Source: Octopus vulgaris
Taxonomy: Eukaryota
Assembly (NCBI GenBank): GCA_951406725.2
Contig: OX597814.1
Coordinates: 158,100,001-158,164,000 of the forward strand
DNA length: 64,000 nt
Direction of reading: 5' to 3'
Shown here in pieces: positions 2,049-47,644 of this stretch. Below the pieces are notes generated by a model. That model did not search any database and had not been told where the DNA came from. It worked only from the letters and a program-made list of their open reading frames with translations. The position numbers were made by a program, and so were the translations under genes. Position 1 is the stretch's first letter. Each line of letters starts with the position of its first letter.

Positions 2049-2082
<34 letters not shown>

Positions 2083-2170
2083 AGGAAAAATTTTTTTAAA
2101 AATGCAGAATGCTCAAATGAAAGAAAATTTTAATAAAATGAGAAAATGATAAAATATATAAATATATATT

Positions 2171-2211
2171 TATTCAACCGGTTTTCGTCATTGTATGACT
2201 TGTCAAGAATA
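2171..2211 (-). ncRNA. Minimal type I hammerhead ribozyme motif (U3-A8 variant), left arm
   Basis: Exact reverse complement of 5510-5550. Confidence 0.7.
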
Positions 2212-2843
2212 TTTATGTTTTAAGAAGTTTTTTTAAAAATTAGAAAGGGGAAAAAAAGAAAATTGCATTGTTTTTTGTAAAAGAATAATGATAAAAATGT
2301 ACAAAAATTGAAAAATAAGTTCTCCGATACATTGTGAGTTCGTTGTGTATCTTGAGTTTTATGGTTGTTTACCAAAAAATTACCTTGAGGTGTTAAGATC
2401 CAAAGGGATTAAGAGCATGCGATGTGTTGTGTTGTTAAATTCAGCATGTTGCAGGACAGGAAGTAGTAGTAATTGTGGTCCTGGTTCTTCAGTTCCTGTG
2501 TTGTGAGTAAGGGGAGACAACTCTTTTGAGTTCTTCAATAAAACCCAAATTATAAAACTATCATTTTAGCTTCATTTGCATTATCTTTTTTATATAATTG
2601 CTTGTTAACTTAACTTTCAGATTTTAACACTTTATTTATATTATTTTCTAATAATATAAATATGCATAGACAATTGCATTTCAAATTGTCATATCATTTA
2701 TAATAAAAATGATAGTAATAACAACAATAGTAAAAATGATATTTAAAGAATATAAGTTTTAGCTTGAAGTGATGAATGCATGGTATCTTTATATATTTGT
2801 GTTAGTCCATCCATGAAGAGTGAGGTAGAGAAAGGAAGTTTGA

Positions 2844-3859
2844 TCAACGAGGAGTTTGCATATTAAGTTGTGTTTGGAATTTTTCAATAAAGAGATTCTC
2901 CTTGTTAATTCTCTCCTGTGTGGTGATCCCGTCTTTACATTGGTAGAAGGGGAATATATAGAATTTGGGGTTTAAGTCTTTAGCACATGAGTCTAAGTGG
3001 TCACTCAGTGGAATTTGTCGGTATTCCGGGAGATTTATTTGTTCTTTATGCACCGTTACTCGTTTACGTAACGGGAGACTCGTTTGTCCAACATAATTAT
3101 GTTGGCAACCAGCGCATGTGAGAGCGTAGATAAGGTTCTCGGAGGAACAGGAGAAGTTAGTCTTGATTTTAAACTTCGTACCTTGTTTGAAGGTAAATTC
3201 AGAGCCTTCAAGTAGAAAGGAGCAGGTACCACAGTTTGAGCGTGCACATTTTTTTACTGTTGGGGGTGGATGTGGTGTGTGAAGTTTGGCATTTGTCAAT
3301 AGTTTTTTTAAAGATTTGTGTTGCCTTTTGCATTTGAGGATTTTGTGTGTATTTATAATGTTTTTCATTTTTGGGTCTGTTGACAGTAGACTGAGGTTTT
3401 GTATGATTGTGGTGTATGCTTCGATATTTTTGGGGTTGTGGGTGGAAATGTATGGAAGTATTTTGAGGTTGTGTGTGGTGTTAGGTTGGGTGGTTTTCAG
3501 TGTAGTGTTGTCTAGTTCTTTGGCGCGTTTTATTCCATACTCTATAAGGGTGGAGGGATATTGACGTTGTAATAGTGTTTTTTGAGGTCTTGAAGGCGTA
3601 TTTCTCGTGTTTTTGGATCCGAGACAATGGTGCATACCCTTTTAGCTAAATTGAAAGGGATATTTGTCTTGGTGTGTTTTGGGTGGCATGAACTAAAGAG
3701 GAGGTATTGTTGTGAGTCTGTAGGTTTGTGGTAGATGTCTGTTATGATTTGGTTCTTAGGTGTTTTTATAATTAGGAGATCAAGGAATGGGAGATGATGT
3801 TTGCTTAATTCCATAGTGAATTGGATGTTGGGATGTATGTTGTTTAGTATGGTTTTGAA
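2844..3859 (-). pseudogene. PLE RT-thumb/GIY-YIG fragment, left arm, frameshifted
   Basis: Mirror of 3861-4877. One A is missing in a homopolymer near 3580, splitting it into ORFs 3542-3919 and 2844-3635. Confidence 0.9.
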
Positions 3860-3860
3860 A

Positions 3861-4877
3861 TTCAAAACCATACTAAACAACATACATCCCAACATCCAAT
3901 TCACTATGGAATTAAGCAAACATCATCTCCCATTCCTTGATCTCCTAATTATAAAAACACCTAAGAACCAAATCATAACAGACATCTACCACAAACCTAC
4001 AGACTCACAACAATACCTCCTCTTTAGTTCATGCCACCCAAAACACACCAAGACAAATATCCCTTTCAATTTAGCTAAAAGGGTATGCACCATTGTCTCG
4101 GATCCAAAAACACGAGAAATACGCCTTCAAGACCTCAAAAAAACACTATTACAACGTCAATATCCCTCCACCCTTATAGAGTATGGAATAAAACGCGCCA
4201 AAGAACTAGACAACACTACACTGAAAACCACCCAACCTAACACCACACACAACCTCAAAATACTTCCATACATTTCCACCCACAACCCCAAAAATATCGA
4301 AGCATACACCACAATCATACAAAACCTCAGTCTACTGTCAACAGACCCAAAAATGAAAAACATTATAAATACACACAAAATCCTCAAATGCAAGAGGCAA
4401 CGCAAATCTTTAAAAAAACTATTGACAAATGCCAAACTTCACACACCACATCCACCCCCAACAGTAAAAAAATGTGCACGCTCAAACTGTGGTACCTGCC
4501 CCTTTCTACTTGAAGGCTCTGAATTTACCTTCAAACAAGGTACGAAGTTTAAAATCAAGACTAACTTCTCCTGTTCCTCCGAGAACCTTATCTACGTTCT
4601 CACATGCGCTGGTTGCCAACATAATTATGTTGGACAAACGAGTCTCCCGTTACGTAAACGAGTAACGGTGCATAAAGAACAAATAAATCTCCCGGAATAC
4701 CGACAAATTCCACTGAGTGACCACTTAGACTCATGTGCTAAAGACTTAAACCCCAAATTCTATATATTCCCCTTCTACCAATGTAAAGACGGGATCACCA
4801 CACAGGAGAGAATTAACAAGGAGAATCTCTTTATTGAAAAATTCCAAACACAACTTAATATGCAAACTCCTCGTTGA
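3861..4877 (+). pseudogene. PLE polyprotein C-terminal part (RT thumb, Cys-rich linker, GIY-YIG endonuclease); open frame but 5'-truncated
   Basis: IQFTME..LPFLDLLI..TDIYHKPTDSQQYLLFSSCHP (PLE RT C-terminus), CARSNCGTC linker, LIYVLTCAGC..YVGQT..LRKRVTVH (GIY-YIG). The upstream RT core motifs are absent. Confidence 0.9.
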
Positions 4878-5509
4878 TCAAACTTCCTTTCTCTACCTCA
4901 CTCTTCATGGATGGACTAACACAAATATATAAAGATACCATGCATTCATCACTTCAAGCTAAAACTTATATTCTTTAAATATCATTTTTACTATTGTTGT
5001 TATTACTATCATTTTTATTATAAATGATATGACAATTTGAAATGCAATTGTCTATGCATATTTATATTATTAGAAAATAATATAAATAAAGTGTTAAAAT
5101 CTGAAAGTTAAGTTAACAAGCAATTATATAAAAAAGATAATGCAAATGAAGCTAAAATGATAGTTTTATAATTTGGGTTTTATTGAAGAACTCAAAAGAG
5201 TTGTCTCCCCTTACTCACAACACAGGAACTGAAGAACCGGGACCACAATTACTACTACTTCCTGTCCTGCAACATGCTGAATTTAACAACACAACACATC
5301 ACATGCTCTTAATCCCTTTGGATCTTAACACCTCAAGGTAATTTTTTGGTAAACAACCATAAAACTCAAGATACACAACGAACTCACAATGTATCGGAGA
5401 ACTTATTTTTCAATTTTTGTACATTTTTATTATTATTCTTTTACAAAAAACAATGCAATTTTCTTTTTTTCCCCTTTCTAATTTTTAAAAAAACTTCTTA
5501 AAACATAAA

Positions 5510-5550
5510 TATTCTTGACAAGTCATACAATGACGAAAACCGGTTGAATA
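5510..5550 (+). ncRNA. Minimal type I hammerhead ribozyme motif (U3-A8 variant) in the PLE 3' pseudo-LTR
   Basis: TATTC [TTGACAA] GTCAT-aca-ATGAC [GAAA] ACCGG T T GAATA: 5-bp stem I, 5-bp stem II, palindromic AACCGGTT stem III region. Confidence 0.72.
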
Positions 5551-5687
5551 AATATATATTTATATATTTTATCATTTTCTCATTTTATTAAAATTTTCTT
5601 TCATTTGAGCATTCTGCATTTTTAAAAAATTTTTTCCTTACTTATCATTTCTCCACGTGCGGTCAACACAACCCCACCATTTATTGA

Positions 5688-13423: not shown

Positions 13424-14698
13424 TTAGCAGTTAAGCCTGGTTTCACCCGGTCTGTTTGGATGATGTGGCTGAGATCGTTCGGTTAGGCATAATCTATAAC
13501 ACCGTTTCTCAACCTTATCATTTCGGGTCCCTTGTTTCGATTGGAGCTTCCAGCTGTATGAAAATTTATCTCCCCCACTCCTGCTTCAGGAGTTGTGAAG
13601 AAAGAATTTGTAAGTAGTTGTATCCGTAAAAAATTTATTTACAGAGAGCAGAAATTGAAAGAAGATATGTGAAATGGACGTGTGTGTGTGTGTGAGAGAG
13701 AGAGTGTGTGTGTATGTGTGTGTTTGTGTGTATGCGTGCGTTCGCCTGTGTATGTGAGAGAGAAAGAGAGATAGAGTGAGTGAGTGAAGGTGTGTGTCAC
13801 TGAGTTACGTTGGCTGGCACGGCGACTACGAAGCTTTTGATGCGGCAGATGGGATGATTTGAAAGATGTGAAGAAATGCCGTCTTTTCAGTGGAGCGCTT
13901 CTTTGTAGGCAACGTTTCTCGTTTTCCCTTCTGATGCACAAATGTATAGACTTTGTGGCCTGCCAACACGGGAGCATCCAACGTAAAGTTGACCGTGAGA
14001 GGAAACTTGCTCTGTGAGATTTAAACCAACCATTTGCAATGATTGAACCTGTGCCTTATTTCTTGTCATTGCAAAGGAGAGTTTGATAGGAAATTGAAGC
14101 TGCTTAAACTTGTAGATCGTACCGGAGGGAGTGAGGGATATTGGGGTTATAAGAACATCTTGACTAGCGCCTGGTCCATTCAAGATGGCTGAACTCAATG
14201 AAAAGATTCCCCATGGTTGAGCCACGACTAACATTGCAAGTTGGATTTTCCTGTTTGGTCAGGTCTAGTGGTGATTTGAAGGCTGAGTGTGCCGTACGAC
14301 CGCCATGCAGTAGAGTTGCCGCAATGCCGCTGGATGCAACCCCTATAGCAATCCGATTATCCTGGCGAATTTTGGCTAGCAGGAGGTTCATGAGAAAAGT
14401 TTTTTCCGGTTCTGTCGGGAGCATCCAATAAAGCAGAAATTGAAAGAAGATATATGAAATGGATGTGTGTGTGTGTATGTGTGTGCTTTTCCGGCTAATT
14501 TGACGGAATTTTGCAGTCAGTACGAGGTGGTTTGAGTTTATCTCTCGAGTCGAAGTGTTGTTAATTTGTCTGTTATAGCAATGCCCAGAAAAGTGAAAAT
14601 GTCTTCGTTTTTTACTCCATCGCCTGCAGTAAAAGGAGTCAAGAGCCCTTCTCCGTAAACAAATTTTACTTTTGTAATATAGGACTGGGTGGAAAGGA

Positions 14699-14748
<50 letters not shown>

Positions 14749-15061
14749 TGCGTGTGTGTGTGCTTGATGGGGTGTACGATATGGCCGAGAGAGTTAACTG
14801 AAATTTTGTTATTCACTTGTAGTGAGTGAATGTGTGAGAAAAGGAAAGAGAGTTTGTGTATGTTAGCGGGGAAATTCCATTAGAAAATGTTTTAATCGAT
14901 TTTCTTAGTAACTGTGGGGGCTAGAAAAGAAAATACAAAATGCATTCCAATCTATGTATCCGTCTTCACATGTGTGCCATTTTTCACACGAATCCACACT
15001 GCCGTTTGGCTTTGAACCTCAAGACAAGAAAGAATACAACGCTCGGCCATGGGCAATTTAT

Positions 15062-16219: not shown

Positions 16220-16261
<42 letters not shown>

Positions 16262-16267
<6 letters not shown>

Positions 16268-16430
16268 CATGCTTTAAATAAAAGCAGCAGAAATATAACA
16301 AAAGCTGTTACTTAGAGTTTCACATTCCCGTTCGTAAAATGGAACAGAAATAACGATAAAGCATATTACTCTATCTCTGGTATTTGAGTACTCTTTTTTC
16401 CACCTTGTTTCGTATTTATGTGCGTACTCC

Positions 16431-16482
<52 letters not shown>

Positions 16483-16851
16483 AATGGTTGTGTGGTAAGT
16501 AAGTTTCTTACTAACCAGATAGTTCTGGGTTCAGTCCCATTGCATGGCACCTTGGGCAAATGTCCTCTACTATAACCTCTATATGTATGTATGTATGTAT
16601 ACATATACATATGTAACATGTGCACACACACATATATATATATACACATATATACATTCATATGAATATTTATACATATACACATATTAATACCTTAATA
16701 TATATAAGGTGGAAAAAAGAGTACTCAAATACCAGAGATAGAGTAATATGCTTTATCTTTATTTCTGTTCCATTTTACGAACGGGAACGTGAAACTCTAA
16801 GTAACAGCTTTTGTTATATTTCTGATGCTTTTATTTAAAGCATGTTCATAT
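16262..16851. repeat. Inverted duplication (arms about 16262-16406 and 16706-16851) of a rearranged PLE pseudo-LTR fragment
   Basis: The arms are near-identical reverse complements. The sequence is related to 17794-17855 and 19910-19986. Confidence 0.8.
16481..16580 (+). mobile_element. tRNA-derived SINE head, truncated duplicate
   Basis: A-box-like tggttgtgtggtaag and B-box-like gggttcagtccc; near-identical to 16950-17050. Confidence 0.7.
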
Positions 16852-16949
16852 ATAAAATTATATAGAACAAAATTAAATATACGATAAAACATTTACCTAT
16901 AATTAAGTAAAGTACAAAATAATAAATAAATAGTATATATATATATATA

Positions 16950-17172
16950 GGAATGGTTGTGTGGTAAGTAAGTTTCTTACTAACCCAGATAGTTCTGGGT
17001 TCAGTCCCATTGCATGGCACCTTGCGCAAATGTCCTCTACTATAACCTCTGGCCGCCCAAAAGAGACCGATAGAATAAGTACAGCGTTTACAAAGAATAA
17101 GCCTTGGGGTCGATTAAATTGGTTGTCCAATATGACCGCAGACAAATAAATGAAACAAGTTAATAAATAAAG
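16950..17172 (+). mobile_element. tRNA-derived SINE
   Basis: Pol III box-like head, then gcacctt-g-gcaaatgtc-tctactata body and A-rich tail. Confidence 0.7.
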
Positions 17173-17408
17173 GAATGTATATATATATATATATATGTAT
17201 ATTTGAGTAGAAAAATGAAATATCTTTTTATGGATAATTCGTTTAACCGATACCTGTGTAGCAAATTCACATCAGAAATAACACGGTTGAAGTTACGTGC
17301 CTAGGGCAGAGACTACGTGTTTTCGTGTGGAAATTTGTGTCTAGTTTTATAAAATTTATGAATAAATGAAAGAATGGAGTTGAACGACAAATTAACAAAT
17401 TTCCTTTA

Positions 17409-17491
17409 TTTTCGACATATGTTTCGAAGGCAGCATATTCCTAATTGTGAATGAATAAGGAGTACATTATGCCGCTTTCTCATCAGGAAAA
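17409..17491 (-). ncRNA. Canonical type I hammerhead ribozyme with extended stem II (left arm)
   Basis: Reverse complement of 17584-17666, with one substitution in loop II. Confidence 0.88.
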
Positions 17492-17583
17492 ACAAGGAAT
17501 TTATGTCAACATCAAGATTCCCAAAAACTTTTAGATGACTGCTGTCACGGAGCAGAATCTTGATGTTGACATAAATTCCTTGT

Positions 17584-17666
17584 TTTTCCTGATGAGAAAG
17601 CGGCATAATGTACTCCTTATTCCTTCACAATTAGGAATATGCTGCCTTCGAAACATATGTCGAAAA
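17584..17666 (+). ncRNA. Canonical type I hammerhead ribozyme with extended stem II (right arm)
   Basis: TTTTC [CTGATGA] GAAAGCGGCATA ... TATGCTGCCTTC [GAAA] CATATG [TC] GAAAA. GUC cleavage triplet after 17661; palindromic ACATATGT stem III. Confidence 0.9.
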
Positions 17667-17733
17667 TAAAGGAAATTTGTTAATTTGCCGTTCAACTCCA
17701 TTCTTTCATTTATTCATAAATTTTATAAAAATA

Positions 17734-17794
<61 letters not shown>

Positions 17795-17826
17795 TTTATT
17801 TAAAGCAGCAGAAAATTCAACAATAT

Positions 17827-17864
17827 CTGTTACTCTGAGTTTCTCGTTGCCGTTCATCAGACAG
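17827..17864 (-). ncRNA. Minimal type I hammerhead ribozyme
   Basis: Minus strand: CTGT [CTGATGA] ACG-gcaa-CGA [GAAA] CTCAGAG [TA] ACAG. GUA triplet; weak stem II. Confidence 0.75.
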
Positions 17865-19099
17865 TTTTTGCTAGAATGGAACTGATATATCAATTCAATC
17901 CAGACTCTTACAAACGCTACACCTTTAAAAAAAATGGACTTGTTTGATTGGCTCTTTAGAAATAACGGTCAATCCTCGAGCGATAAACAAAAAAATGAGC
18001 TCAAAAATATATGTATATATATATTAAAAAATTAGAAAAATTAGAAAAATTATAAAATTCGAGGAAAAAACCTTACATTGAATAAAATACATATTGACGT
18101 TAATGAAGGAAATATAATTAATGCATGGAAATTAAAAGCATTATAAATATTACACTGCAATACATATTCATATTAAAGTGTACATATATATATCAACATA
18201 CACAGAAGGATGCGTGCAAACGCCATACATATACAGACGTATAAATATAAATCTAAAATATACACACAAATGCATGCATACATATATGTACGCAATCTGT
18301 CTCGCACGCAAGTTAAAATCATCGATGCTAATGTAGCGTTTCTTATTTACGGAGTAAAGCTTAAGTAATGGGGACGCAAAGTTGTATGTACCAGTATCAG
18401 TTAGAGAAAAAAACGAAAGAAAGGAAGAGAGAGAAAAAGGAACGAAGAAGGGGGAAGGAAAAAATAAAAGGAGGGGAGGGGTAAAAACGAAATAAGAAAA
18501 ATTAAGTATACAAGCTGTGTAACCGCGTTATTGACATATATAGAGACAAGTATAAAAATACACAAGTTCGAATGGATACATACACATACACTCGCGTATG
18601 TGTGTGCTTAAGCACAAACATACGCTCACTTACACAGACACAGAGACGTATGCTTACAAATACATATCCATGGCTATACACATATTTACATCAAAATTCT
18701 AATTTTTGACAACATTGCTTTTTAAAAAAGGTGAGTGCAATAATGAAAAATATACGAAAGACATATAAAAATATAACACCCTATGTTGGATCATCTATAA
18801 ATTAAAAATCAAGGTAATCCTATACAATACAATAACATGAAATAAACAAAGCCGAAGGTTTTTCCTAATGTATATGTAGAAATATAAACAAAATAAACAA
18901 AATATATGCATGAGACTTTGCTATACGGAATGAAATCTGCATAGCGCGTAACAAATCCATCGTCGCGTTTACATACTAGTCCAAGAGTCAAAATCAATAT
19001 TTCAAAAATACAAAATATATACTCTATCTATATGGTATATTTATATTTGACATTTTAAATTTGGTTGCGTGCCTACATAAGTTCATTAGCTCACTTCTT

Positions 19100-19680
19100 T
19101 GATTCAAAGAATTATTGTCTTTGAATAAAATATACAGTTTCTCTAATAGGCAAAGCTTGCATTAAAAATTATTTCTGTGTGCTCCATGCCTGTATGGTGC
19201 CGCTCTGTCCAGAATGCTCCATGTCACGTTGAAAGGTGGGGTTTCCTTTCCTTTTAGTTCCCAGACATATTTTGCTAGGCTGGTCCTCTTCCTATTCTCT
19301 GGGTATCTAAATGAATTTTTATGTGAATAAAATCGTGTTTTAAATGAATTTTCTGAAGCCCCTGTATATGTCTTGTATTCCGATGAGCCTTCTATTTGCA
19401 CCTTGGCTCTATAAACTACTCCTTTAACTAGACATTTCCCTTCTAACGGACACGAGTTTTCGTTTTTGAAATTGCATTTCTTAATGGGCTCGGCACCATG
19501 TCTAATCTCAATCAGATTCCTATTATGCTGGCTAATGTAAGAGGCGAAATTTCTGCAACAAGAATAGCTAACCTTCAGGGTTCTTCTATTAAATATCCTA
19601 TAGAATTTATGGCCCTGCTTAAAATGCTTAGAGACTAATCTCAAAAATTCCTTACCTATATTAGTCTTTACGGCCAAATT
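19100..19680 (-). pseudogene. PLE GIY-YIG endonuclease fragment
   Basis: CPLEGKCLVKGVVYRAKV..TYTGASENSFKTRFYSHKNSF..SLAKYVWELK; CKLCLLEK continues in frame after the stop. Confidence 0.85.
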
Positions 19681-19844
19681 GAAAGCCCATTCGTTTTTTC
19701 TCTAACTGATAATGGTACATACAACTTTACGTCCCCCTTACTTAAGCTTTACTCCGTAAATAAGAAACGCCACATTAGCATCGATGATTTTAACTTGCGT
19801 GCGAGATAGATTGCGTACATATATCGGTTCCATTTTAGCAAAAA

Positions 19845-19882
19845 TTGTCTGATGAACGGCAACGAGAAACTCAGAGTAACAG
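19845..19882 (+). ncRNA. Minimal type I hammerhead ribozyme (inverted copy)
   Basis: TTGT [CTGATGA] ACG-gcaa-CGA [GAAA] CTCAGAG [TA] ACAG. Confidence 0.75.
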
Positions 19883-20071
19883 ATATTGTTAAATTTTCTG
19901 CTGCTTTAAATAAAGCATATTTCTCTACCACTGGTATTTGAGTACTATTTTTTCCACCTTGTTTCACATTTATGTGTTTACTCCGGTATATATATATATA
20001 TACGTTACCTATTATGCGTATATATATCAAGTTTATATTTCTGTGCGTGCGCATGTGTTCATGCATGTATG

Positions 20072-20204: not shown

Positions 20205-20720
20205 ATACTGGGAGGATAGAGACGGAACGAAGTGAAAATTCGAAAAGTCGAAAATTCGAACGAACCCGACGCGAGCGTTGTCAGACAATAGTGTAATAAA
20301 TAAAATATATGCATACATACAAACATATATGTACGTACCGACATCTACATGTATATATACATGCATATATAAATATATAGACGTACAGGACACCACAAAA
20401 AGTCGTAAAACTCAACAGAAACGAAAACGGAAAAGCCGTTTTGTTACAACAGACGAACGAGAACGAAAACAGGAAAAACATTAAGTACAACAGAAAAACG
20501 AGGTACAGGAGATGCTACACAAGGAAAAATCCCCTTCATCAGCTGTCACTAGCAGACATAGCGTGTTTCGAAGGCAAGACAGGACACGTCTGGTCATGCT
20601 AGGCCTTCCTACGAGAGAATTAAAATAAAATAATCTCGCAGAGGGGTAAAACAAGCAAGAAAAAATGTAACACAAAAAGGGACGTAACAAAGAACTGCAC
20701 AATAAAATACAAGAACAAAA
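20205..20720 (-). repeat. Interspersed repeat, same family as about 63430-64000 in the opposite orientation
   Basis: aggccttcctacgagagaattaaaataaaa (20601) is approximately the reverse complement of attttattttaattctctcgcaggaaggcc (63961). The class is not determined. Confidence 0.55.
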
Positions 20721-20724
20721 TACC

Positions 20725-23700
20725 AGTATTCAACCCAAGAATAACAATGGAGCGGTACGTACTTTAAACTTACAACAAAAAATGTACGGAAAGCTACACG
20801 TGCGAAATAATGTGACAACAGAAATGAACGGACCGATACCCTACGAAAATGACGACCGTCAAAATAATGGGCCGGGCGTTGTTCCTCATGTCCCGCAAAT
20901 AAAACCCAAAAGACATAAATGGACACGTGAGGAATACATTTCTATCTTACACGCATACTTCACAGCAGTGCTCTACCAAAAAAATGAAAAGACAACAACA
21001 CATACATATAAAATATGGAAGGAAAATAACATAAATATAGACTTGGATATAGCAATGAACCCTAATAAATTAGCTAACGTACGAAGATACATTCTCAAAG
21101 CAAAAGAAATATCAGAAATAGAAATAGAACATCTAAAAGAAACAATACACAAGGAAAATGTAGATAGAAGCCACACAACAATACCCAATAATATAAACAC
21201 TGAAATAGTAAAACACGAAGACAAACGAAACATTCCCAACAAACACGATGTAAACAACGAAGGGGAGCCTAATGATTATGATAATATAAAAAGTAAAATA
21301 ATCAAAGAACTGAAAACCACAGAGCTCAAAATGGCCCACCGACCATACCTCCCAAGAATCAAAATAGACGAAACAACAACACCAATTATAAACAGCATAA
21401 ACCTAACCGTCACTGAACTAATAGCCACTGAAACAAAAAGCGACATCACTGAGCTAAATGACTTAGTATACGCAGCAGCCACTGCAGCCACAGAAGAAGC
21501 TGGATACTCACTCAAACCCATCCAAACAGGAGTACCAACACCCAAACAAACCCTGTGGATAAATAACATCCAAAACAAAATACAAAAAATGAGAAAAGAT
21601 CTGTCGATTCTTAATGAAATCAGCAGACAATCAACGCTACTGAGCAACAAAAAGAAAACAAAAATACTCCGCAAATATAACATCACAGAAAAAGATTTAC
21701 CTGAGATAAAAGAAAAGCTGAAGCAAGATATCCTTGCCAAAGCACAAAGAATCCGCCGGTACGAGAACCGCCAGCGCTTCTTTGAACAAAACAAAAAGTT
21801 CAACTCCAGCCCCAAAAAGTTCTACCAAGAACTTGGCAAAAATAAAATAGAAATCACTGCAGCACCAACGGCAGAAGAAGTGGAAGAATTCTGGAGAGAA
21901 ATATGGTCGGCGAACGAACAACCAAAAGAAAGGAGTATCAAAATGACAAACTCGGCATCTGAACAACTTTGGATCACCATAACAACTGAAGAGGTCACCC
22001 AGGCACTGCAAAGACTAAGCAACTGGAAGGCACCTGGGCATGACAAGATCCCCAAATTCTGGTTGAAATATCTAACAGGAATGCACAAAAAGCTGGCTGA
22101 AAACTTTAACAACATGCTAGCAGAGCCAGAGACAATGCCTGAATGGCTCACGAAGGGGAAAACCATCTTAATTCCCAAATCAAATGAGACAGCAAAACCA
22201 GAAAACTACAGACCAATAACCTGTCTCCTTACAATGTTCAAGGCATTTACTGCAGTGATATCGCAAAGGTTGAACAAGCACCTGGACGAAAACAAACTGT
22301 TCCCAGAAGAGCAGAAAGGATGCCGCAAAGGCTCATATGGCTGTAAAGATCAACTAATGATTAATAAAGCCATAACTGAAGACAGCCACAGAAAGAAGAA
22401 AGGCCTCAGTATGGCCTGGATCGACTACAAAAAGGCGTTTGATAGCATCCCCCACACATGGATCCTCGAAACACTAGCCATTAACAAAGTAGCACCAACA
22501 ATCATAAAATTCATAGGGCACTCTATGAATAAATGGCAAACAGTCCTACACCTCCAAACAAAAGAGGGACTCATGAAAACCAAAGACATCCCCATTAGAA
22601 AAGGAATATTCCAAGGAGACACGCTCTCTCCACTCCTTTTCTGCTTGGCACTGTCACCCCTATATGATTTGCTAAATAGAACTAGATGTGGATATAAATG
22701 TTACGACAAAACGATCAGCCACCTTTTATATATGGATGACCTAAAACTATACGCTGCAAATGACAACAGCTGGAAACACTATTAAAGGCTGTTCATGGAT
22801 TTACCAAAGAAATTTGGATTAGAAAAATGCGCCAAAGTAACCATGAAAAGAGGAAAACTAGTGAAGAGTAGCAGCATCACACTAGATAAAACCAATGAAA
22901 TAAAAGAATTAGACCAAAGCCAAACTTACAAATACTTAGGAATCCATGAACTAGATAAGACACAACACACACAAATGAAAGAGAAAATAAAAAAAAGAAT
23001 ATTATAGACGAGTTAGATCAATACTAAAAACAGAGCTCAATGCTAAAAACAAGATAATAGGTATTAACACTTTAGCTGTCCCAGTTATAAGTTACAGCTA
23101 CAATATCCTTAACTGGACACTAAATGAACTGACCAAAAAAGATAGGAAAACAAGAAAAATAATGTCAGAATCTAGGATGCCTCACCCAAACTCTGACATA
23201 GAAAGAATATACATACAACGTATAGAAGGTGGTAGAGGCCTTATACAACTGGAAAACTACTATAAAATAACCACCATAGGATTGCAAAAATATCTACTTC
23301 AGAAGGAAGAAAAACTGATACAAATAGCGGCAAAACACGAGCAAAACAAAAAATTGTTGTCAGTATTTAAGGAAGCTGACAAATAAAAACAAGAAATCAT
23401 ACCACCTAATAAATATGAAGAAGAAGAAGAAGATGAAGAAACAACAAAAGCTATAAAACAAATGAAATCCAAACTAAAAATCGAACAGCAACGAACCATG
23501 ATAAAACGATGGCAAGAAAAGCGCCTTCATGGTAAATACTGCACTAAACTAAACGCAAAAGAAATAGACAAAGAAAAATCTCAGCAATGGTTGAGAAGCT
23601 CAGGACTCAAAGCAGAAACAGAGGGATTTTTAATTGCAGCACAAGACCAAAGCCTCCTCAACAGAAATTACCCAAAACATGTAATGAAAAGAAATATAAC

Positions 23701-24374
23701 AAGTAACTGCAGAATATGTGGAGATGGACAAGAAACAATAAATCATATTATCTCTAGCTGCCCAGTCCTGGCTAAGAAGGAATATATTCACAGACATGAC
23801 AGAGTTGGAACCTACATACACTGGAAGCTATGCCAACATTATGGAATAACAACAGAAGAAAGATGGTATAGGCACACACCAGAAAATGTCACAGAAAACG
23901 AGAAAGCAGCCATACTCTGGGATATGCCGATACACACAGATAGAGAAATTAAGGCCAACAGACCAGATATAGTTGTCAAAGATCATGAAGAAAAAAATGC
24001 TTTCTAATTGATGTATCAATACCGGCTGATGACAACGTGTCTCTAAAAGAAATGGAGAAACTCTCAAAATACAAAGACCTGGAAATAGAGGTAGCCAGAA
24101 TGTGAAATCTAAAGACAGAAACAATTCCTATCATAGTAGGTGCATTAGGCATGATAAAAAAATATTCAGACAAATACATAACAAAAACACCAGGACTTAC
24201 AAACACATATAACATACAGAAAATTGCACTCACTAGGCACTGCACACATCCTACGCAGAACACTTTCCATACAATAACCATCAGAGCATCACAACAAATC
24301 ACAGCACATACCCAAGGCACACAGAGCTGCGCTCGGTAGTAAAGTGATAGCACGCTATAAAAATAAAACTACTG

Positions 24375-25601: not shown

Positions 25602-26526
25602 CTACGAAGAAATTAAATGCCACCGATACTATTCTACCCAAGAATAACAATCGAGCGGTACGTACATTAAACTTACAATAAAAAATGTACGAAAAACTAC
25701 ACGTGCAAAATAATGTGACAACAGAAATAAACGGACCGGTACCCTACGAAAATGACGACCGTCAAAATAATGGGCCGGACGTTGTACCTCATGTCCCGCA
25801 AATAAAACCCAAAAGACGTAAATGGACACGTGAGGAATACATTTCTATCTTACACGCATACTTCACAGCAATGCTCTACCCAAAAAATGAAAATACAACA
25901 ACACATACATATAAAATATGGAAGGAAAATAATAGAGATATAGACTTGGATACAGCAATGAACCCTAATAAATTAGCTAAAGTACGAAGATACATTCTCA
26001 AAGCCAAAAAAATATCAGAAATAGAAATAGAACATTTAAAAGAAAAAATACACCAGGAAAATGTAGATAGAAGCCACACAACAATGCCCAATAATATAAT
26101 TAAGGCCAACAGACCAGATATAGTTGTCAGAGATCATGAAGAAAAAAATGCTTTCTAATTGATGTATCAATACCGGCAGATGACAACGTGTCTCTAAAAG
26201 AAATGGAGAAACTCTCAAAATACAAAGACCTGGAAATAGAGGTAACCAGAATGTGGAATCTGAAAACAGAAACAATTCCTATCATAGTAGGTGCATTAGG
26301 CATGATAAAAAAATATTCAGACAAATACATAACAAAAACACCAGGACTTACAAACACATATAACATACAGAAAATTGCACTACTAGGCACTGCACACATC
26401 CTACGCAGAACACTTTCCATACAATAACCATCAGAGCATCACAACAAATCACAGCACATACCCAAGGCACACAGAGCTGCGCTCAGTAGTGAAGTGAAAG
26501 CACCCTATAAAAAAAAACTACTGAAT
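25600..26526 (+). mobile_element. Internally deleted non-autonomous derivative of the 20725-24376 element
   Basis: 25630-26098 matches 20727-21195; 26099-26526 matches about 23948-24376. (TAA)n on both sides. Confidence 0.93.
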
Positions 26527-37379: not shown

Positions 37380-38568
37380 CGAGGGGCGTTCAATAAGTAA
37401 TGCCCCTGACCCACTTCCCATAACAGTAGAGCAACGAAACTTGGCACAGTTATTAGTATTTTTTACATAGGAACCACCCAGAGTTACGCATTTCTCCCAT
37501 CATTTGATGCAGCTCTGGAGACCGTTTTTGTAGAAGACCTCAGTTTGGTCCTCCAACCACGACGTGACTTCAGAAATCAAGGCTGCATCATATGGGAAAC
37601 GCTTTCCTTTCAAAAACAACTTCATGGCTGGGAAGAGATGAAAATCAGAGGGTGCAAGGTCAGGAGAGTAAGGGGATGGGGGAGGAGTTCATAATCGCGC
37701 GCCTGTGCTTCTGATCTGGCGACACGTGAGTTGTAGGCTCCTGTAATTGTGGTACCCTTTGCCAGGAAATCTGTCATCACTACTCCGTCCTGGTCCCAGA
37801 AGACTGTGAGCATGACCTTGCCAGCGGAGGGCTGCACCCTTGCCTTCTTTGGGGGAGGTGAGTCACGGTGCTTCCACTGCATTGACTGGGCTTTGGTCTC
37901 TGGATCATAGTGATGGACCCAGGTTTCATCCTGTGTAATCAGTCTTCTGAAAAATTTTGACTCATCTTCTTGGCACATCTCCAAATTCATCCTCGAGCAC
38001 TCGACGCGTTCTTGCTTCTGGAAAGGTGTGAGCAACCTGGGAATCCATCTGGCAGACACCTTTTGCATATGCAAATGGTCATGAATGATAGTTTCCACAG
38101 ACCCGGTACTAATCTTGACCTCATGGGCTATTTGGCGAATAGTTATGCGTCGATCTTCCAAAATGGCAGCCTCAACTTGACGGACAGATGCCTCATCAAT
38201 GGCAGAAGAGGGCGACCAGATCTAGGAGCTGTTTCCACAGAGTTCCGACCATGTTTAAATTCACGATGCCAGCGTTTTACAAGGTCATATGATGGGGCAT
38301 CATCACCATAAGTTACTTTCATTTCATCAAAAGTCTCCCGTGGTGTGCGTCCTTTCAAATACAAAAAACCGGATCACTGCTCGACACTCAACTGGCTCCA
38401 TTTCACACTTGACTCTGTTAAAACACCTGTAAATCAGAAACCACAATTAGTTTAGAGCTGTAATTTGCCACTTCATCTATAGCGATATAAATAATTGCAC
38501 ATGCAAAATTGCAGCTAGATCAAGCAAATGCAAGTGGGTCAGGAGCATTACTTATTCAACGTCCCTCG
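37380..38568 (-). mobile_element. mariner transposon, defective (frameshifts and internal deletion)
   Basis: TA duplications. TIRs cgaggggcgttcaataagtaatgcccctgaccc / gggtcaggagcattacttattcaacgtccctcg. WIPRLL, ITQDETWVHHY, GKVMLTVFWD. Confidence 0.95.
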
Positions 38569-45599: not shown

Positions 45600-47228
45600 G
45601 AGGAGAAGCGGGCATCATGCCAACAAAAAGCAATGCATGGGTATATATTCCGTAAGCTAGAGGGCAACAGCAGCATTGACAAGAAAAGAAACCTCGCCCG
45701 GACGTGTAATAGATACATTACATCCCACCAAGAGGATATGCCTTCGCTATCAAGGAACAGGAGATAGTTATTAAATCCTGATAAACAAGAGAGACAATGA
45801 TATCACCAAACGTTTACGTTGTAATAGAAAATGTGAGCTCTGCAGAAGATATCACCAGTATCATTAGCAGTTGGCCCAAATTGTCTACCAGATACTACAT
45901 GCCCTGTGGCATGACATAGCTGCAAAGACTGTTTATAATGCTACCCACAGGAATGACTGCCCAGACGTATGCATCAAAGTTACGACAGATGTGCCAGAGA
46001 AAGCAAAAAAGGACAAAGTGGGAAAACCCGAAAAGGAAAATAAGGAAACGACGGAGGTGACCGTGGAAGAAGCTGGAAGGCAGAAGAGCGACAACAAGGA
46101 AGGCAGCGAGATAGAATTCACGCAAGAGACGCACAAGAGGAAGAAGCCCAGTTCCATCGACTCCCCTTCCCAAACATAAAAAAACAACAATGCAAACAGA
46201 CAACATTAAAACAATTCCCCAACTCCACCCCTTTGGCACTGTGTTCGTGGGGACGAAAAATACCAAACCCCACCCCATAAACCCAGAAAGAAAAATAAAG
46301 ATAAATATATTTCTCTCGACTCGAAAAATGAAAGAATATTTCGTTTCGTAAAGGCGCACCATCAAATAAAACTCTTAAGCAGAACGGTAGACAACAAGTC
46401 TGCTGTTTGCTACGCAAGGGTGTGCGATGACGGGTGGATGGACAGAATTCTGCAAGAACAGCTGAAAAAAAAAAAAGATGTGAATGATATCGCTCAAGAA
46501 ATAGCGGACGGGAAAATAACAATTACCCTGGCAGCCACACCAAGCCAGAGCCCGGTGGCCACACCGGTAAAAATCCCAGCGGTTATGTCTACTAAGGGGA
46601 GAGAGGGAGAAGCAGTCAGACAGAAACTGCCATACGCCCGGTCGCAACCGTAAGTAGAAAATTTAATCTTTCGTTCATCAATGATTAAGTTAGGTTGTAT
46701 AAATGTGCGTGGGCTGAGGTCGAAATGGAAACAAGCTTATTTCCTGAACGACCTCAGGATACACAGTATAGATATAGCCGTTGTAACCGTCTATACAAAC
46801 TGGCAACAGAATGGGAGAATTTCCAGTGCTCTAAGCCGGAGAGGGATGACGCTGGTCCAGAAAGATCCGAGCAAGGGGGATAGTATTAGTAACTACCGGT
46901 CCATAACTCTACCTAACGTAGAGTTAAAGATTTTGGCCAAGGTGCTAGCGAAAAGGTTGATGGATGTCGTGGAGAAACTTGTCGGGAATGCACAGACATA
47001 TGCAACACCCGGCAGGTCGATCCAGGACAATCTTCACCTTATCCGCCACACCTTAGACAGGCTGGGTAAATTAGCCGGCAAAGGTGGCGCAATAGTCCAT
47101 TTAGACCAAAGTAAAGCATTTGATAGGATCAACCATCAGTACCTGGCGGTGGTCCTCGAAGCGGCTGGGCTGGGCCCAGTCTTCCGCGGATGGATCTCTG
47201 CTATGTACAGCAGCATCGAGTCCACAGC
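45600..47228 (+). mobile_element. Tx1/L1-like LINE remnant: ORF1 relics plus internally deleted ORF2
   Basis: 46681 MIKLGCINVRGL..IDIAVV (APE start) joins in frame to NYRSITLPNVELKILAK..LDQSKAFDRINH (RT), then is truncated. Left boundary uncertain. Confidence 0.8.
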
Positions 47229-47644
47229 CCTGATAATCCACCCAATGTCATATTTTAATTTAAGGTAAAAAAGGTGGTGTCAAAAAAAAACAAAAACCCA
47301 GTTAATTGTACAATAATGAATGCCATTTGTAAATATATTCATCCGAACTCAGATATCATTTTTGTGTGTTTGCAATGCTCTGTAATGTGCCCCTGTGTTT
47401 GATTGTATAGTCATAAGAAATATATTCATCATTAGCTCGTGATTAACACACGTTGAGGACGGGAAACCACCCAGAAACTCGAGTACATGTGTATCACGTA
47501 AAGCCAGAGAAGAGCGCGATGACCTCTCCTCGCAAATACTAATCGGACACACAATGTGTGTCGTTAGGCAGCTGGAAGGGATGTCTTCCTGGGGCTATAA
47601 ACGTCACTAGCACTGTCCCGTATAGGACGCCAAGCTTGGTTGGC

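What the first reader, a model, noticed from the sequence alone, without database searches (positions are those of the whole stretch)
17345..17730. 386-bp ORF-less hairpin element made of two canonical hammerheads with a branched stem II
Seen: intact CTGATGA and GAAA cores, GUC site, 5-bp stem I, a 12-bp stem II (1 mismatch, 1 G-U) enclosing a second hairpin (TTCCT-tcacaatt-AGGAA), and palindromic stem III. The arms differ at only 2 sites, so it is recent. It looks like a MITE in DNA but is a ribozyme in RNA. Known: retrozymes have hammerheads in direct repeats and make circular RNA; here the repeats are inverted. Inference: a minimal PLE-derived ribozyme element and the best candidate for activity in this window.
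Basis: partly seen in the sequence, partly recalled or inferred. Interest (0 to 1): 0.8.

Follow-up and report, generated by a model that had tools for sequence, protein, structure and literature searches.

The report
Head-to-head Penelope retroelement ribozyme stub
The hairpin and its two hammerhead-ribozyme motifs are real, but they are likely the two tail ends of an ordinary Penelope-like jumping gene that inserted head to head, and an RNA read through the site is predicted to zip into a long double strand that would bury the ribozyme instead of letting it cut.

Summary
The sequence facts hold: 176-bp arms differing at 2 sites, a 34-nt centre, and an intact type I hammerhead core with palindromic helix III. 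But there is one hammerhead per strand, not two in one RNA, and the unit is larger than reported: about 17203-17730, with a ~140-nt extension on the left only and a candidate 14-bp target duplication inside a (TA)n tract. Public contigs show a very high-copy family in which the 'spacer' is simply the upstream continuation of the left copy, and other copies turn around at other points. This is the published insertion form of Penelope-like elements (5'-truncated copy plus inverted 5'-truncated copy, one-sided tail); the same window holds two larger examples with RT/GIY-YIG remnants. A read-through RNA of either strand is predicted to form a 176-bp duplex about 120 kcal/mol more stable than the ribozyme fold, and a freed single arm would likely need a same-sense partner to form helix III. 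So it is a poor candidate for activity in place. Left open: the autonomous partner, an unusually long (54-nt) stem II, and a possible turnaround hotspot just upstream of the ribozyme.

The parts
17189..17202 (+). Left copy of a candidate 14-bp target-site duplication (G-interrupted TA run), end of a (TA)n tract
   Evidence: Same 14 letters as 17731-17744; inside a microsatellite, so supportive only
17203..17344 (-).
   Evidence: Covered by many contigs in 4 of 4 runs (69/58/65/13 contigs at 17257); X8 record 25 spans 17249-17391 with 3 differences; two records begin to fit at 17206 and 17207
17345..17520 (-). Left arm: 3' part of the longer, 5'-truncated copy
17409..17491 (-). Type I hammerhead motif of the left copy (CUGAUGA 17486-17480, predicted cut after 17414)
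   Evidence: fold z -2.82, 2 of 200 shuffles
17521..17554 (-). Unpaired centre: the 34 nt by which the left copy reaches further upstream than the right copy; not a dedicated spacer
   Evidence: 34/13/29/4 contigs cover 17521; X4 record 24 runs 17462-17553 and goes on for 56 letters that do not fit the right arm
17555..17730 (+). Right arm: shorter, inverted 5'-truncated copy, no tail, ends in (TA)n
17584..17666 (+). Type I hammerhead motif of the right copy: stem I 17584-88/17662-66, core 17589-95, stem II 17596-607/17638-49, bulge 17608-19, hairpin 17620-24/17633-37, GAAA 17650-53, palindromic helix III 17653-60, C17 17661
   Evidence: fold z -2.49, 4 of 200 shuffles
17731..17793 (+). (TA)n tract beginning with the right copy of the candidate target duplication (17731-17744); a second PLE-type insertion starts at its other end (17789)

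Best explanation
This is likely one insertion event of a high-copy, hammerhead-bearing Penelope-like retroelement (PLE) family: two 5'-truncated copies of the element's 3' end lie head to head in a (TA)n microsatellite, the left one 34 nt longer at its 5' end and ~140 nt longer at its 3' end, and any read-through RNA is predicted to form a 176-bp duplex that would silence both ribozymes. Shown: anatomy, family membership of centre and left extension, other turnaround points, hairpin energetics (computed). Inferred mechanism: the RT/GIY-YIG protein of an autonomous copy nicked both strands of AT-rich DNA with a stagger (giving the duplication), and each end primed reverse transcription on uncleaved element RNA, from two different internal start points (tail on one side only); both cDNAs ran through the ribozyme, stopped shortly upstream of it and were joined at their ends. 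I put this two-ended priming slightly ahead (about 0.5) of a fold-back in which the first cDNA is copied on itself (about 0.4). In the parent element the hammerhead likely cleaves slowly as a dimer through the palindromic helix III; at this locus it is a passenger, and the likely RNA product, if the site is transcribed, is double-stranded RNA open to editing or small-RNA processing.
For: Family: 1529, 790, 1171 and 90 contigs laid on 17202-17600 in runs X1, X2, X4, X8 of three coded organisms. Centre belongs to the left copy: 2 of the 32 listed pieces bridge 17520|17521 with 31 or more letters on both sides (X2 record 16, X4 record 24); X4 record 24 and a loose end of 3 contigs at 17553 go on into non-arm sequence. 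Other turnarounds: 17514->17569 with 6 letters between (X4), 17258/17543 on opposite strands (X1, X8), 17338/17397 on opposite strands (X4), X8 record 32 with a deletion and 4 changes packed at 17554-17561; a head-to-tail joint 17540->17315 (X2). Tail: 1 of 32 listed pieces bridges 17344|17345 by the 31-letter rule (X8 record 25), 3 more overlap it with 10-27 letters on the arm side; 4 contigs of X8 end at 17362 into TA-rich DNA as the right arm does. 14-bp duplication at the outer bounds. In-window analogues: 2079-5642, 1773-bp arms, 99.5% alike, ORF whose relatives carry RVT_1 and GIY-YIG domains, hammerhead-like motif at 5515+/2206- and ~45-nt one-sided tail; 17789-19920 with motifs at 17860-/19849+ and an ORF remnant weakly like the first (E 1.4e-4 pairwise, 2e-5 by profile). 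Energetics: hammerhead-constrained fold is 121 (+ strand) and 123 (- strand) kcal/mol above the hairpin; in a lone arm stems I and II form (P 0.79-0.99) but helix III does not (P 0.01-0.02); two same-sense copies fold unprompted into the dimer form with an 8-bp intermolecular helix III, -58.8 against 2 x -25.7. Literature: inverted 5'-truncated copy and one-sided tail (PMC8557442; PMC3846280, with 9-10-bp duplications); opposite-strand hammerhead pairs (PMC4209133); both-strand cleavage and extension, two RT start points, AT-rich targets, uncleaved RNA as main template (PMC11167929).
Against: No RT or endonuclease sequence is linked to this family: 60 PLE-type proteins give no real match to 17202-17733 (best E 0.019) and the whole genome is not held. 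The tail (~140 nt) is far longer than the 30-40 bp described. Each alternative joint rests on one contig per run at 85% likeness, one with only 21 letters on its short side; no run holds half of the stretch's words, so the runs may not be the window's own species. The 5' ends seen cluster at about 17506-17560, which could mean a fixed 5' end of a short unit (though the laid stretch could not show joints further upstream). The duplication lies in a microsatellite: 4 of 24 TA tracts in the window have such a G near the right end and 2 of 24 near the left end, this locus included. Both arms share 6 departures from the majority letter of the laid contigs (17389, 17400, 17432, 17448, 17500, 17519), which fits fold-back copying or gene conversion as well as two templates from one source. 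All RNA statements are predictions.
Confidence: 0.85

Rival explanations
1. One reading: a short non-autonomous ribozyme element that spreads as a fixed fold-back unit (same centre, same arms), mobilised in trans by a PLE and active as RNA.
For: 5' ends of the copies seen cluster just upstream of the ribozyme; X8 record 32 turns around within about 8 letters of this junction; a head-to-tail joint in X2 implies a unit of about 250 nt; catalytic positions show 0 of 22 listed variable places in 19 positions (P 0.07, 6 rows not shown).
Against: The joints seen differ from this one; contigs continue upstream of the centre into non-arm sequence; the full RNA cannot fold the ribozyme; the left copy has a tail the right lacks.
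Confidence: 0.07
2. A single PLE stub inserted first and was later duplicated in inverted form at the DNA level (replication fold-back or break repair).
For: Arms nearly identical and sharing 6 departures from the family majority.
Against: The inverted copy holds no host flank; the outer bounds carry a candidate duplication; two other PLE insertions in the window have the same form; no microhomology at the centre.
Confidence: 0.04
3. A MITE or foldback DNA transposon with 176-bp terminal inverted repeats; the hammerhead is incidental.
For: Short, ORF-less, long inverted repeats.
Against: No duplication at 17345/17730; family sequence continues 140 nt beyond the left 'terminal' repeat and beyond the centre; intact hammerhead typical of PLE repeats.
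Confidence: 0.02
4. Assembly or library fold-back artefact.
For: Near-perfect palindrome; this exact junction was not retrieved from any run.
Against: Each arm has its own private change (at 17452 the right arm has the majority letter), flanks are not palindromic, candidate duplication present.
Confidence: 0.02

Closest known systems
Inverted insertion units of endonuclease-bearing Penelope-like elements (Craig et al. 2021, PMC8557442; Arkhipova et al. 2013, PMC3846280; passages read)
   Same: 5'-truncated copy with an adjacent inverted 5'-truncated copy, head to head; extension on one end only; target duplication of about 10 bp in some copies; AT-rich or microsatellite target; hammerhead in the repeat.
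   Different: No ORF left in this copy; extension ~140 nt against 30-40 bp; centre is a 34-nt loop, not a palindrome; parent ORF not shown.
PLE hammerheads, including opposite-strand pairs 100-700 bp apart in Schistosoma mansoni and the variants with small palindromic helix III (Cervera and De la Pena 2014, PMC4209133; results and discussion read)
   Same: Type I, conserved core, G10.1-C11.1 pair, 5-bp helix I, palindromic helix III needing a dimer, dispersed copies and inverted pairs read as truncated PLEs.
   Different: Stem II domain of 54 nt (12 bp, 12-nt bulge, 5-bp hairpin) against 4 bp (canonical) or 6-8 bp (minimal); no bulged base between positions 9 and 10.1; helix I extends through internal loops.
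Poseidon element of Anolis, PAc (Frangieh et al. 2024, PMC11167929; main text read)
   Same: Provides the mechanism invoked: both strands cut and extended, AT-rich target, two internal RT start points that make the tail, ribozyme cleavage not needed for insertion.
   Different: Different host and family; its start points are 30-40 nt apart; that paper's text as read does not test how inverted copies form.
Non-LTR retrozymes (Cervera and De la Pena 2020, PMC7229834, passages; Li et al. bioRxiv 10.64898/2026.07.22.740005, abstract, introduction and start of methods)
   Same: Non-coding, type I hammerhead, low GC, PLE-derived, unit of a few hundred bases.
   Different: Retrozymes are head-to-tail repeats whose same-sense ribozymes release monomers and circles; this locus is head-to-head with one ribozyme per strand and cannot do that.

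Membership tests
Type I hammerhead ribozyme | Core CUGANGA, GAAA, NUH with three helices in type I order | tested here: met
Type I hammerhead ribozyme | Match to a curated Rfam hammerhead model | tested here: not met
   0 matches at gathering level in the window; none of 17 matches at E<=10 is a hammerhead family; probably due to the long stem II
Type I hammerhead ribozyme | Self-cleavage after C17 | not testable with these tools
   needs in vitro transcription; only contigs, no raw RNA reads, were offered
PLE-type dimer hammerhead | Short palindromic helix III, unstable in a monomer, stable in a same-sense dimer | tested here: met
   predicted only: P 0.01-0.02 in monomer; 8-bp intermolecular helix in cofold
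EN+ Penelope-like element insertion | Head-to-head 5'-truncated copies with variable turnaround | tested here: met
   (single contigs per joint)
EN+ Penelope-like element insertion | Optional 3' tail on one end | tested here: met
   17203-17344 is family sequence; longer than the 30-40 bp described
EN+ Penelope-like element insertion | AT-rich target, short duplication possible | tested here: inconclusive
   (TA)n on both sides and a 14-bp duplication, but within a microsatellite
EN+ Penelope-like element insertion | Linkage of this repeat to an RT + GIY-YIG ORF in full-length copies | not testable with these tools
   no genome held; no protein match inside the element; pattern scans found no true copy
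Non-LTR retrozyme | At least two same-sense hammerheads in tandem units | tested here: not met
   one sense core per strand; one head-to-tail joint elsewhere in the family (X2)
Non-LTR retrozyme | Abundant monomer or circular RNA | not testable with these tools
   contigs cannot show ends, strand or circles
MITE (TIR DNA transposon derivative) | Inverted repeats form the element's ends and are flanked by a target duplication | tested here: not met
   no duplication at 17345/17730; family sequence runs past the left repeat
MITE (TIR DNA transposon derivative) | Many copies with the same ends and interior | tested here: inconclusive
   joints seen differ from this one, but contigs drop rare variants and may come from other species

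The most novel reading that the evidence does not exclude
The turnaround just upstream of the ribozyme is programmed, not random: the palindromic helix III pairs two element RNAs, as a retroviral dimerisation signal does, and a dimeric PLE RT-endonuclease copies both from the two cut DNA ends, so that this octopod family's long-stem-II hammerhead works as a template-pairing device and the family spreads largely as ~350-nt non-autonomous units that land as hairpins and seed double-stranded RNA.
Probability: 0.08. Interest if true: 0.65.

Novelty: new member of a known kind. Interest (0 to 1): 0.15.

Why it matters
As it stands it matters little: it is a common kind of PLE insertion scar, and the lesson is for annotation (such stubs look like MITEs or microRNA hairpins, and their hammerheads escape Rfam). 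Two modest uses remain. The family's hammerhead has an unusually large stem II and an intact core, so a single arm is a ready substrate for a monomer-versus-dimer cleavage test. And how PLEs make head-to-head copies is still open (PMC8557442); a very high-copy family with young arms and visible junctions would allow two-ended priming to be told from fold-back copying by a junction census.

Tried and rejected
Whole genome: none held, so no copy census and no autonomous partner. Pattern scans: 0 matches in metagenome contigs for one 22-mer; 2 matches for a 20-mer, both 20-nt chance hits inside bacterial-looking coding DNA with no further likeness (L001, L002), dropped; 0 in viral and prokaryote genome contigs. 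Other copies in the window: none beyond the two arms. Rfam: no hammerhead model; the microRNA-family matches are below gathering score and reflect the plain hairpin. Coding origin of arm or centre: no real match with 60 PLE-type proteins. Sequencing runs: no RNA holder listed; X8 is only guessed to be RNA and is not used as evidence of expression; 4 of the 24 listed runs were laid, on 17202-17600 only. No contig of X1, X2 or X4 covers 17556; a part without cover proves nothing and is not counted. Contig depth was not used as copy number. Conservation of the core among contig variants is not significant (P 0.07). Variant letters in stem II point both ways (17599 and 17602 would add pairs, 17600 would break one; linkage unknown). 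Earlier scan notes by sequence and by place: nothing. Lunse et al. (PMC5785218) is not held; I know it only from its citation in PMC6765202. Five literature searches showed no description of this family or of helix III as a template-pairing signal, but I saw mostly listings, none was aimed at stem II length, and I read no supplements (those of PMC4209133 and PMC8557442 may hold related motifs or cephalopod PLE models).

Full report
Observation. The window shows two inverted arms of 176 bp, 17345-17520 and 17555-17730, around a 34-nt centre; they differ at 2 places. The right arm holds a type I hammerhead motif on the + strand (core 17589-17595, GAAA 17650-17653, C17 at 17661), the left arm its mirror on the - strand (core from 17486). 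A strict descriptor finds exactly these 2 hits in the window and 2 hits in 30 shuffled windows together; each motif folds better than shuffles (4 of 200 and 2 of 200 as good). Stem II is a 12-bp helix, a one-sided 12-nt bulge and a 5-bp hairpin, not a branch. No Rfam hammerhead model matches. There is no other copy in the window.

Host. Relatives of a retroelement ORF in the window include two proteins named from Argonauta hians at 54-56% identity, so the host is likely an octopod cephalopod; that the nearby short repeats look like octopus SINEs is recalled, not tested. No whole genome is held.

True extent. I laid contigs of 4 of 24 listed runs on 17202-17600 at 85% likeness: 1529, 790, 1171 and 90 contigs fit, so the family is highly repeated in three coded organisms; none of the runs holds half of the stretch's words, so they may be relatives of the window's species. 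The left 'flank' is family sequence too: 69, 58, 65 and 13 contigs carry a variant at 17257, X8 record 25 spans 17249-17391 with 3 differences (1 of 32 listed pieces bridges 17344|17345 by the 31-letter rule; 3 more overlap it with 10-27 letters on the arm side), and two records start to fit at 17206 and 17207. Left of that lies a (TA)n run whose last 14 letters (17189-17202, with one G) recur at 17731-17744, right after the right arm. This is a candidate target duplication; it is supportive only, since 4 and 2 of 24 TA tracts in the window have such a G near their right or left end. The insertion is therefore about 17203-17730.

The centre. 34, 13, 29 and 4 contigs cover 17521; X2 record 16 and X4 record 24 bridge arm and centre with 31 or more letters on both sides; record 24 goes on for 56 letters that do not fit the right arm, and a loose end of 3 contigs starts behind 17553. 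So the centre is the upstream continuation of the left copy. Five other joints appear, each in one contig per run: 17514->17569 with 6 letters between (X4), 17258/17543 on opposite strands (X1 with 21 letters on the short side, X8 with 31), 17338/17397 on opposite strands (X4), X8 record 32 (a deletion and 4 changes packed at 17554-17561, which I read as a nearby but separate turnaround) and a head-to-tail joint 17540->17315 with 26 letters between (X2). None is this locus's junction. The 5' ends cluster at about 17506-17560; the laid stretch could not show joints further upstream, so this may be partly an effect of my choice. Four contigs of X8 end at 17362 into TA-rich DNA, near where the right arm ends, which suggests two preferred 3' ends. 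Both arms share 6 departures from the contigs' majority letter in the three DNA runs; at 17452 only the left arm departs, and at 17387/17688 the right arm likely does (no variant row there; 6 rows were not shown).

In-window controls. 2079-5642 is the same design on a larger scale: 1773-bp arms 99.5% alike, a perfectly palindromic centre at 3860, (TA)n on both sides, a ~45-nt extension on the right only, a hammerhead-like motif of the U3-A8 type at 5515+/2206-, and an ORF with a sub-threshold GIY-YIG match whose 42 relatives include proteins with RVT_1 and GIY-YIG domains. 17789-19920 has hammerhead motifs at 17860- and 19849+, nested inverted segments 95% alike, a one-sided extension before (TA)n and an ORF remnant with 18 unnamed relatives that weakly resembles the first ORF's endonuclease region. 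It shares the TA tract 17731-17793 with the finding.

RNA behaviour (predicted). The whole element folds at -283.2 kcal/mol. Forcing the hammerhead costs 121 kcal/mol on the + strand and 123 on the - strand, and its helices have pair probability 0.0. Because the copies point outward, the antisense arm is made first on either strand, so there is no time window for folding during transcription. A lone arm forms stems I and II (P 0.79-0.99) but not helix III (P 0.01-0.02); two same-sense copies fold into the dimer form with an 8-bp intermolecular helix III (-58.8 against 2 x -25.7). The inverted partner cannot supply that copy. PLE hammerheads were reported to be inactive as monomers and weak as dimers (PMC4209133; review PMC6765202, passages), and the Anolis one needed protein (PMC11167929).

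How it arose (inferred). Both copies keep sequence upstream of the cut site, so the template RNA was uncleaved, as found for the Anolis element. That protein cuts and extends both strands, prefers AT-rich DNA, starts at two internal points and is predicted to be a dimer; priming from both DNA ends would give outward-facing 3' ends, independent 5' truncations, a one-sided tail and a duplication. The centre has no microhomology. Fold-back self-priming, proposed for rotifer PLEs with palindromic junctions (PMC3846280, passages), fits the shared departures and the 2079-5642 insertion, and remains nearly as likely.

Comparison with what is known. The inverted 5'-truncated copy and the one-sided tail are standard PLE features (PMC8557442, passages; PMC8969392, passages). 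Hammerhead pairs 100-700 bp apart on opposite strands were reported in Schistosoma and read as truncated PLEs (PMC4209133). Hammerheads are on record in a cephalopod genome (235 Rfam matches in giant squid, PMC6962438, passages). It fails the tandem test of non-LTR retrozymes (PMC7229834, passages; bioRxiv 10.64898/2026.07.22.740005, part 1 of 5) and the boundary test of MITEs. Membership of the PLEs is well supported by architecture but not closed, because no ORF has been linked to this family. Earlier notes of this scan on other genomes reach the same reading; they are unchecked and are not counted as support.

Verdict. A new member of a known kind: a young-looking (2 of 176) head-to-head PLE stub with an intact but likely buried hammerhead. 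What is a little unusual is the 54-nt stem II, the ~140-nt tail and the possible turnaround hotspot. Interest 0.15.

Noticed in passing
window 2079-5687: Large head-to-head PLE insertion: 1773-bp arms 99.5% alike, perfect palindrome at 3860, RT C-terminal part plus GIY-YIG ORF (3870-4877+, frameshifted mirror on -), U3-A8-type hammerhead-like motif with palindromic helix III at 5515+/2206-, ~45-nt tail on the right, (TA)n on both sides.
   Followed up: partly
window 17789-19987: Second inverted PLE-type insertion sharing the TA tract with the finding: minimal hammerhead motifs 17860-/19849+, ORF remnant 19162-19701-, about 390 extra bases in the left copy (17890-18282), ~67-nt one-sided tail.
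   Followed up: partly
window 15885+, 47453+, 58029+, about 20530-20575-: Further lone hammerhead-like motifs of other families; the one near 20550 has its CUGAUGA downstream of GAAA and GUC (permuted order, type II-like) and shares about 20 letters with the finding's core region. None of those folded (15885, 20510-20600) beats shuffles.
   Followed up: partly
window 17230-17292: Part of the left extension is covered by far more contig depth than its neighbours, and 14 (X1) and 11 (X4) contigs leave it at 17278 into other sequence: possibly a 3' motif shared by several related families.
   Followed up: no
window 20671-24007 and 25682-26158: Broken non-LTR retrotransposon ORF with RVT_1 domain (E 1.6e-23), in several pieces, plus a second internally deleted copy.
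   Followed up: no
window 16500-16580 and 16969-17050: Two near-identical pieces of a short interspersed repeat 470 bp apart; 16248-16480 / 16633-16864 is another inverted pair, 88% alike.
   Followed up: no
window 13887-14793, 37622-38221, 46654-47268: ORF remnants that look, from recall only, like a Helitron-type helicase, a mariner-type transposase and a LINE reverse transcriptase.
   Followed up: no
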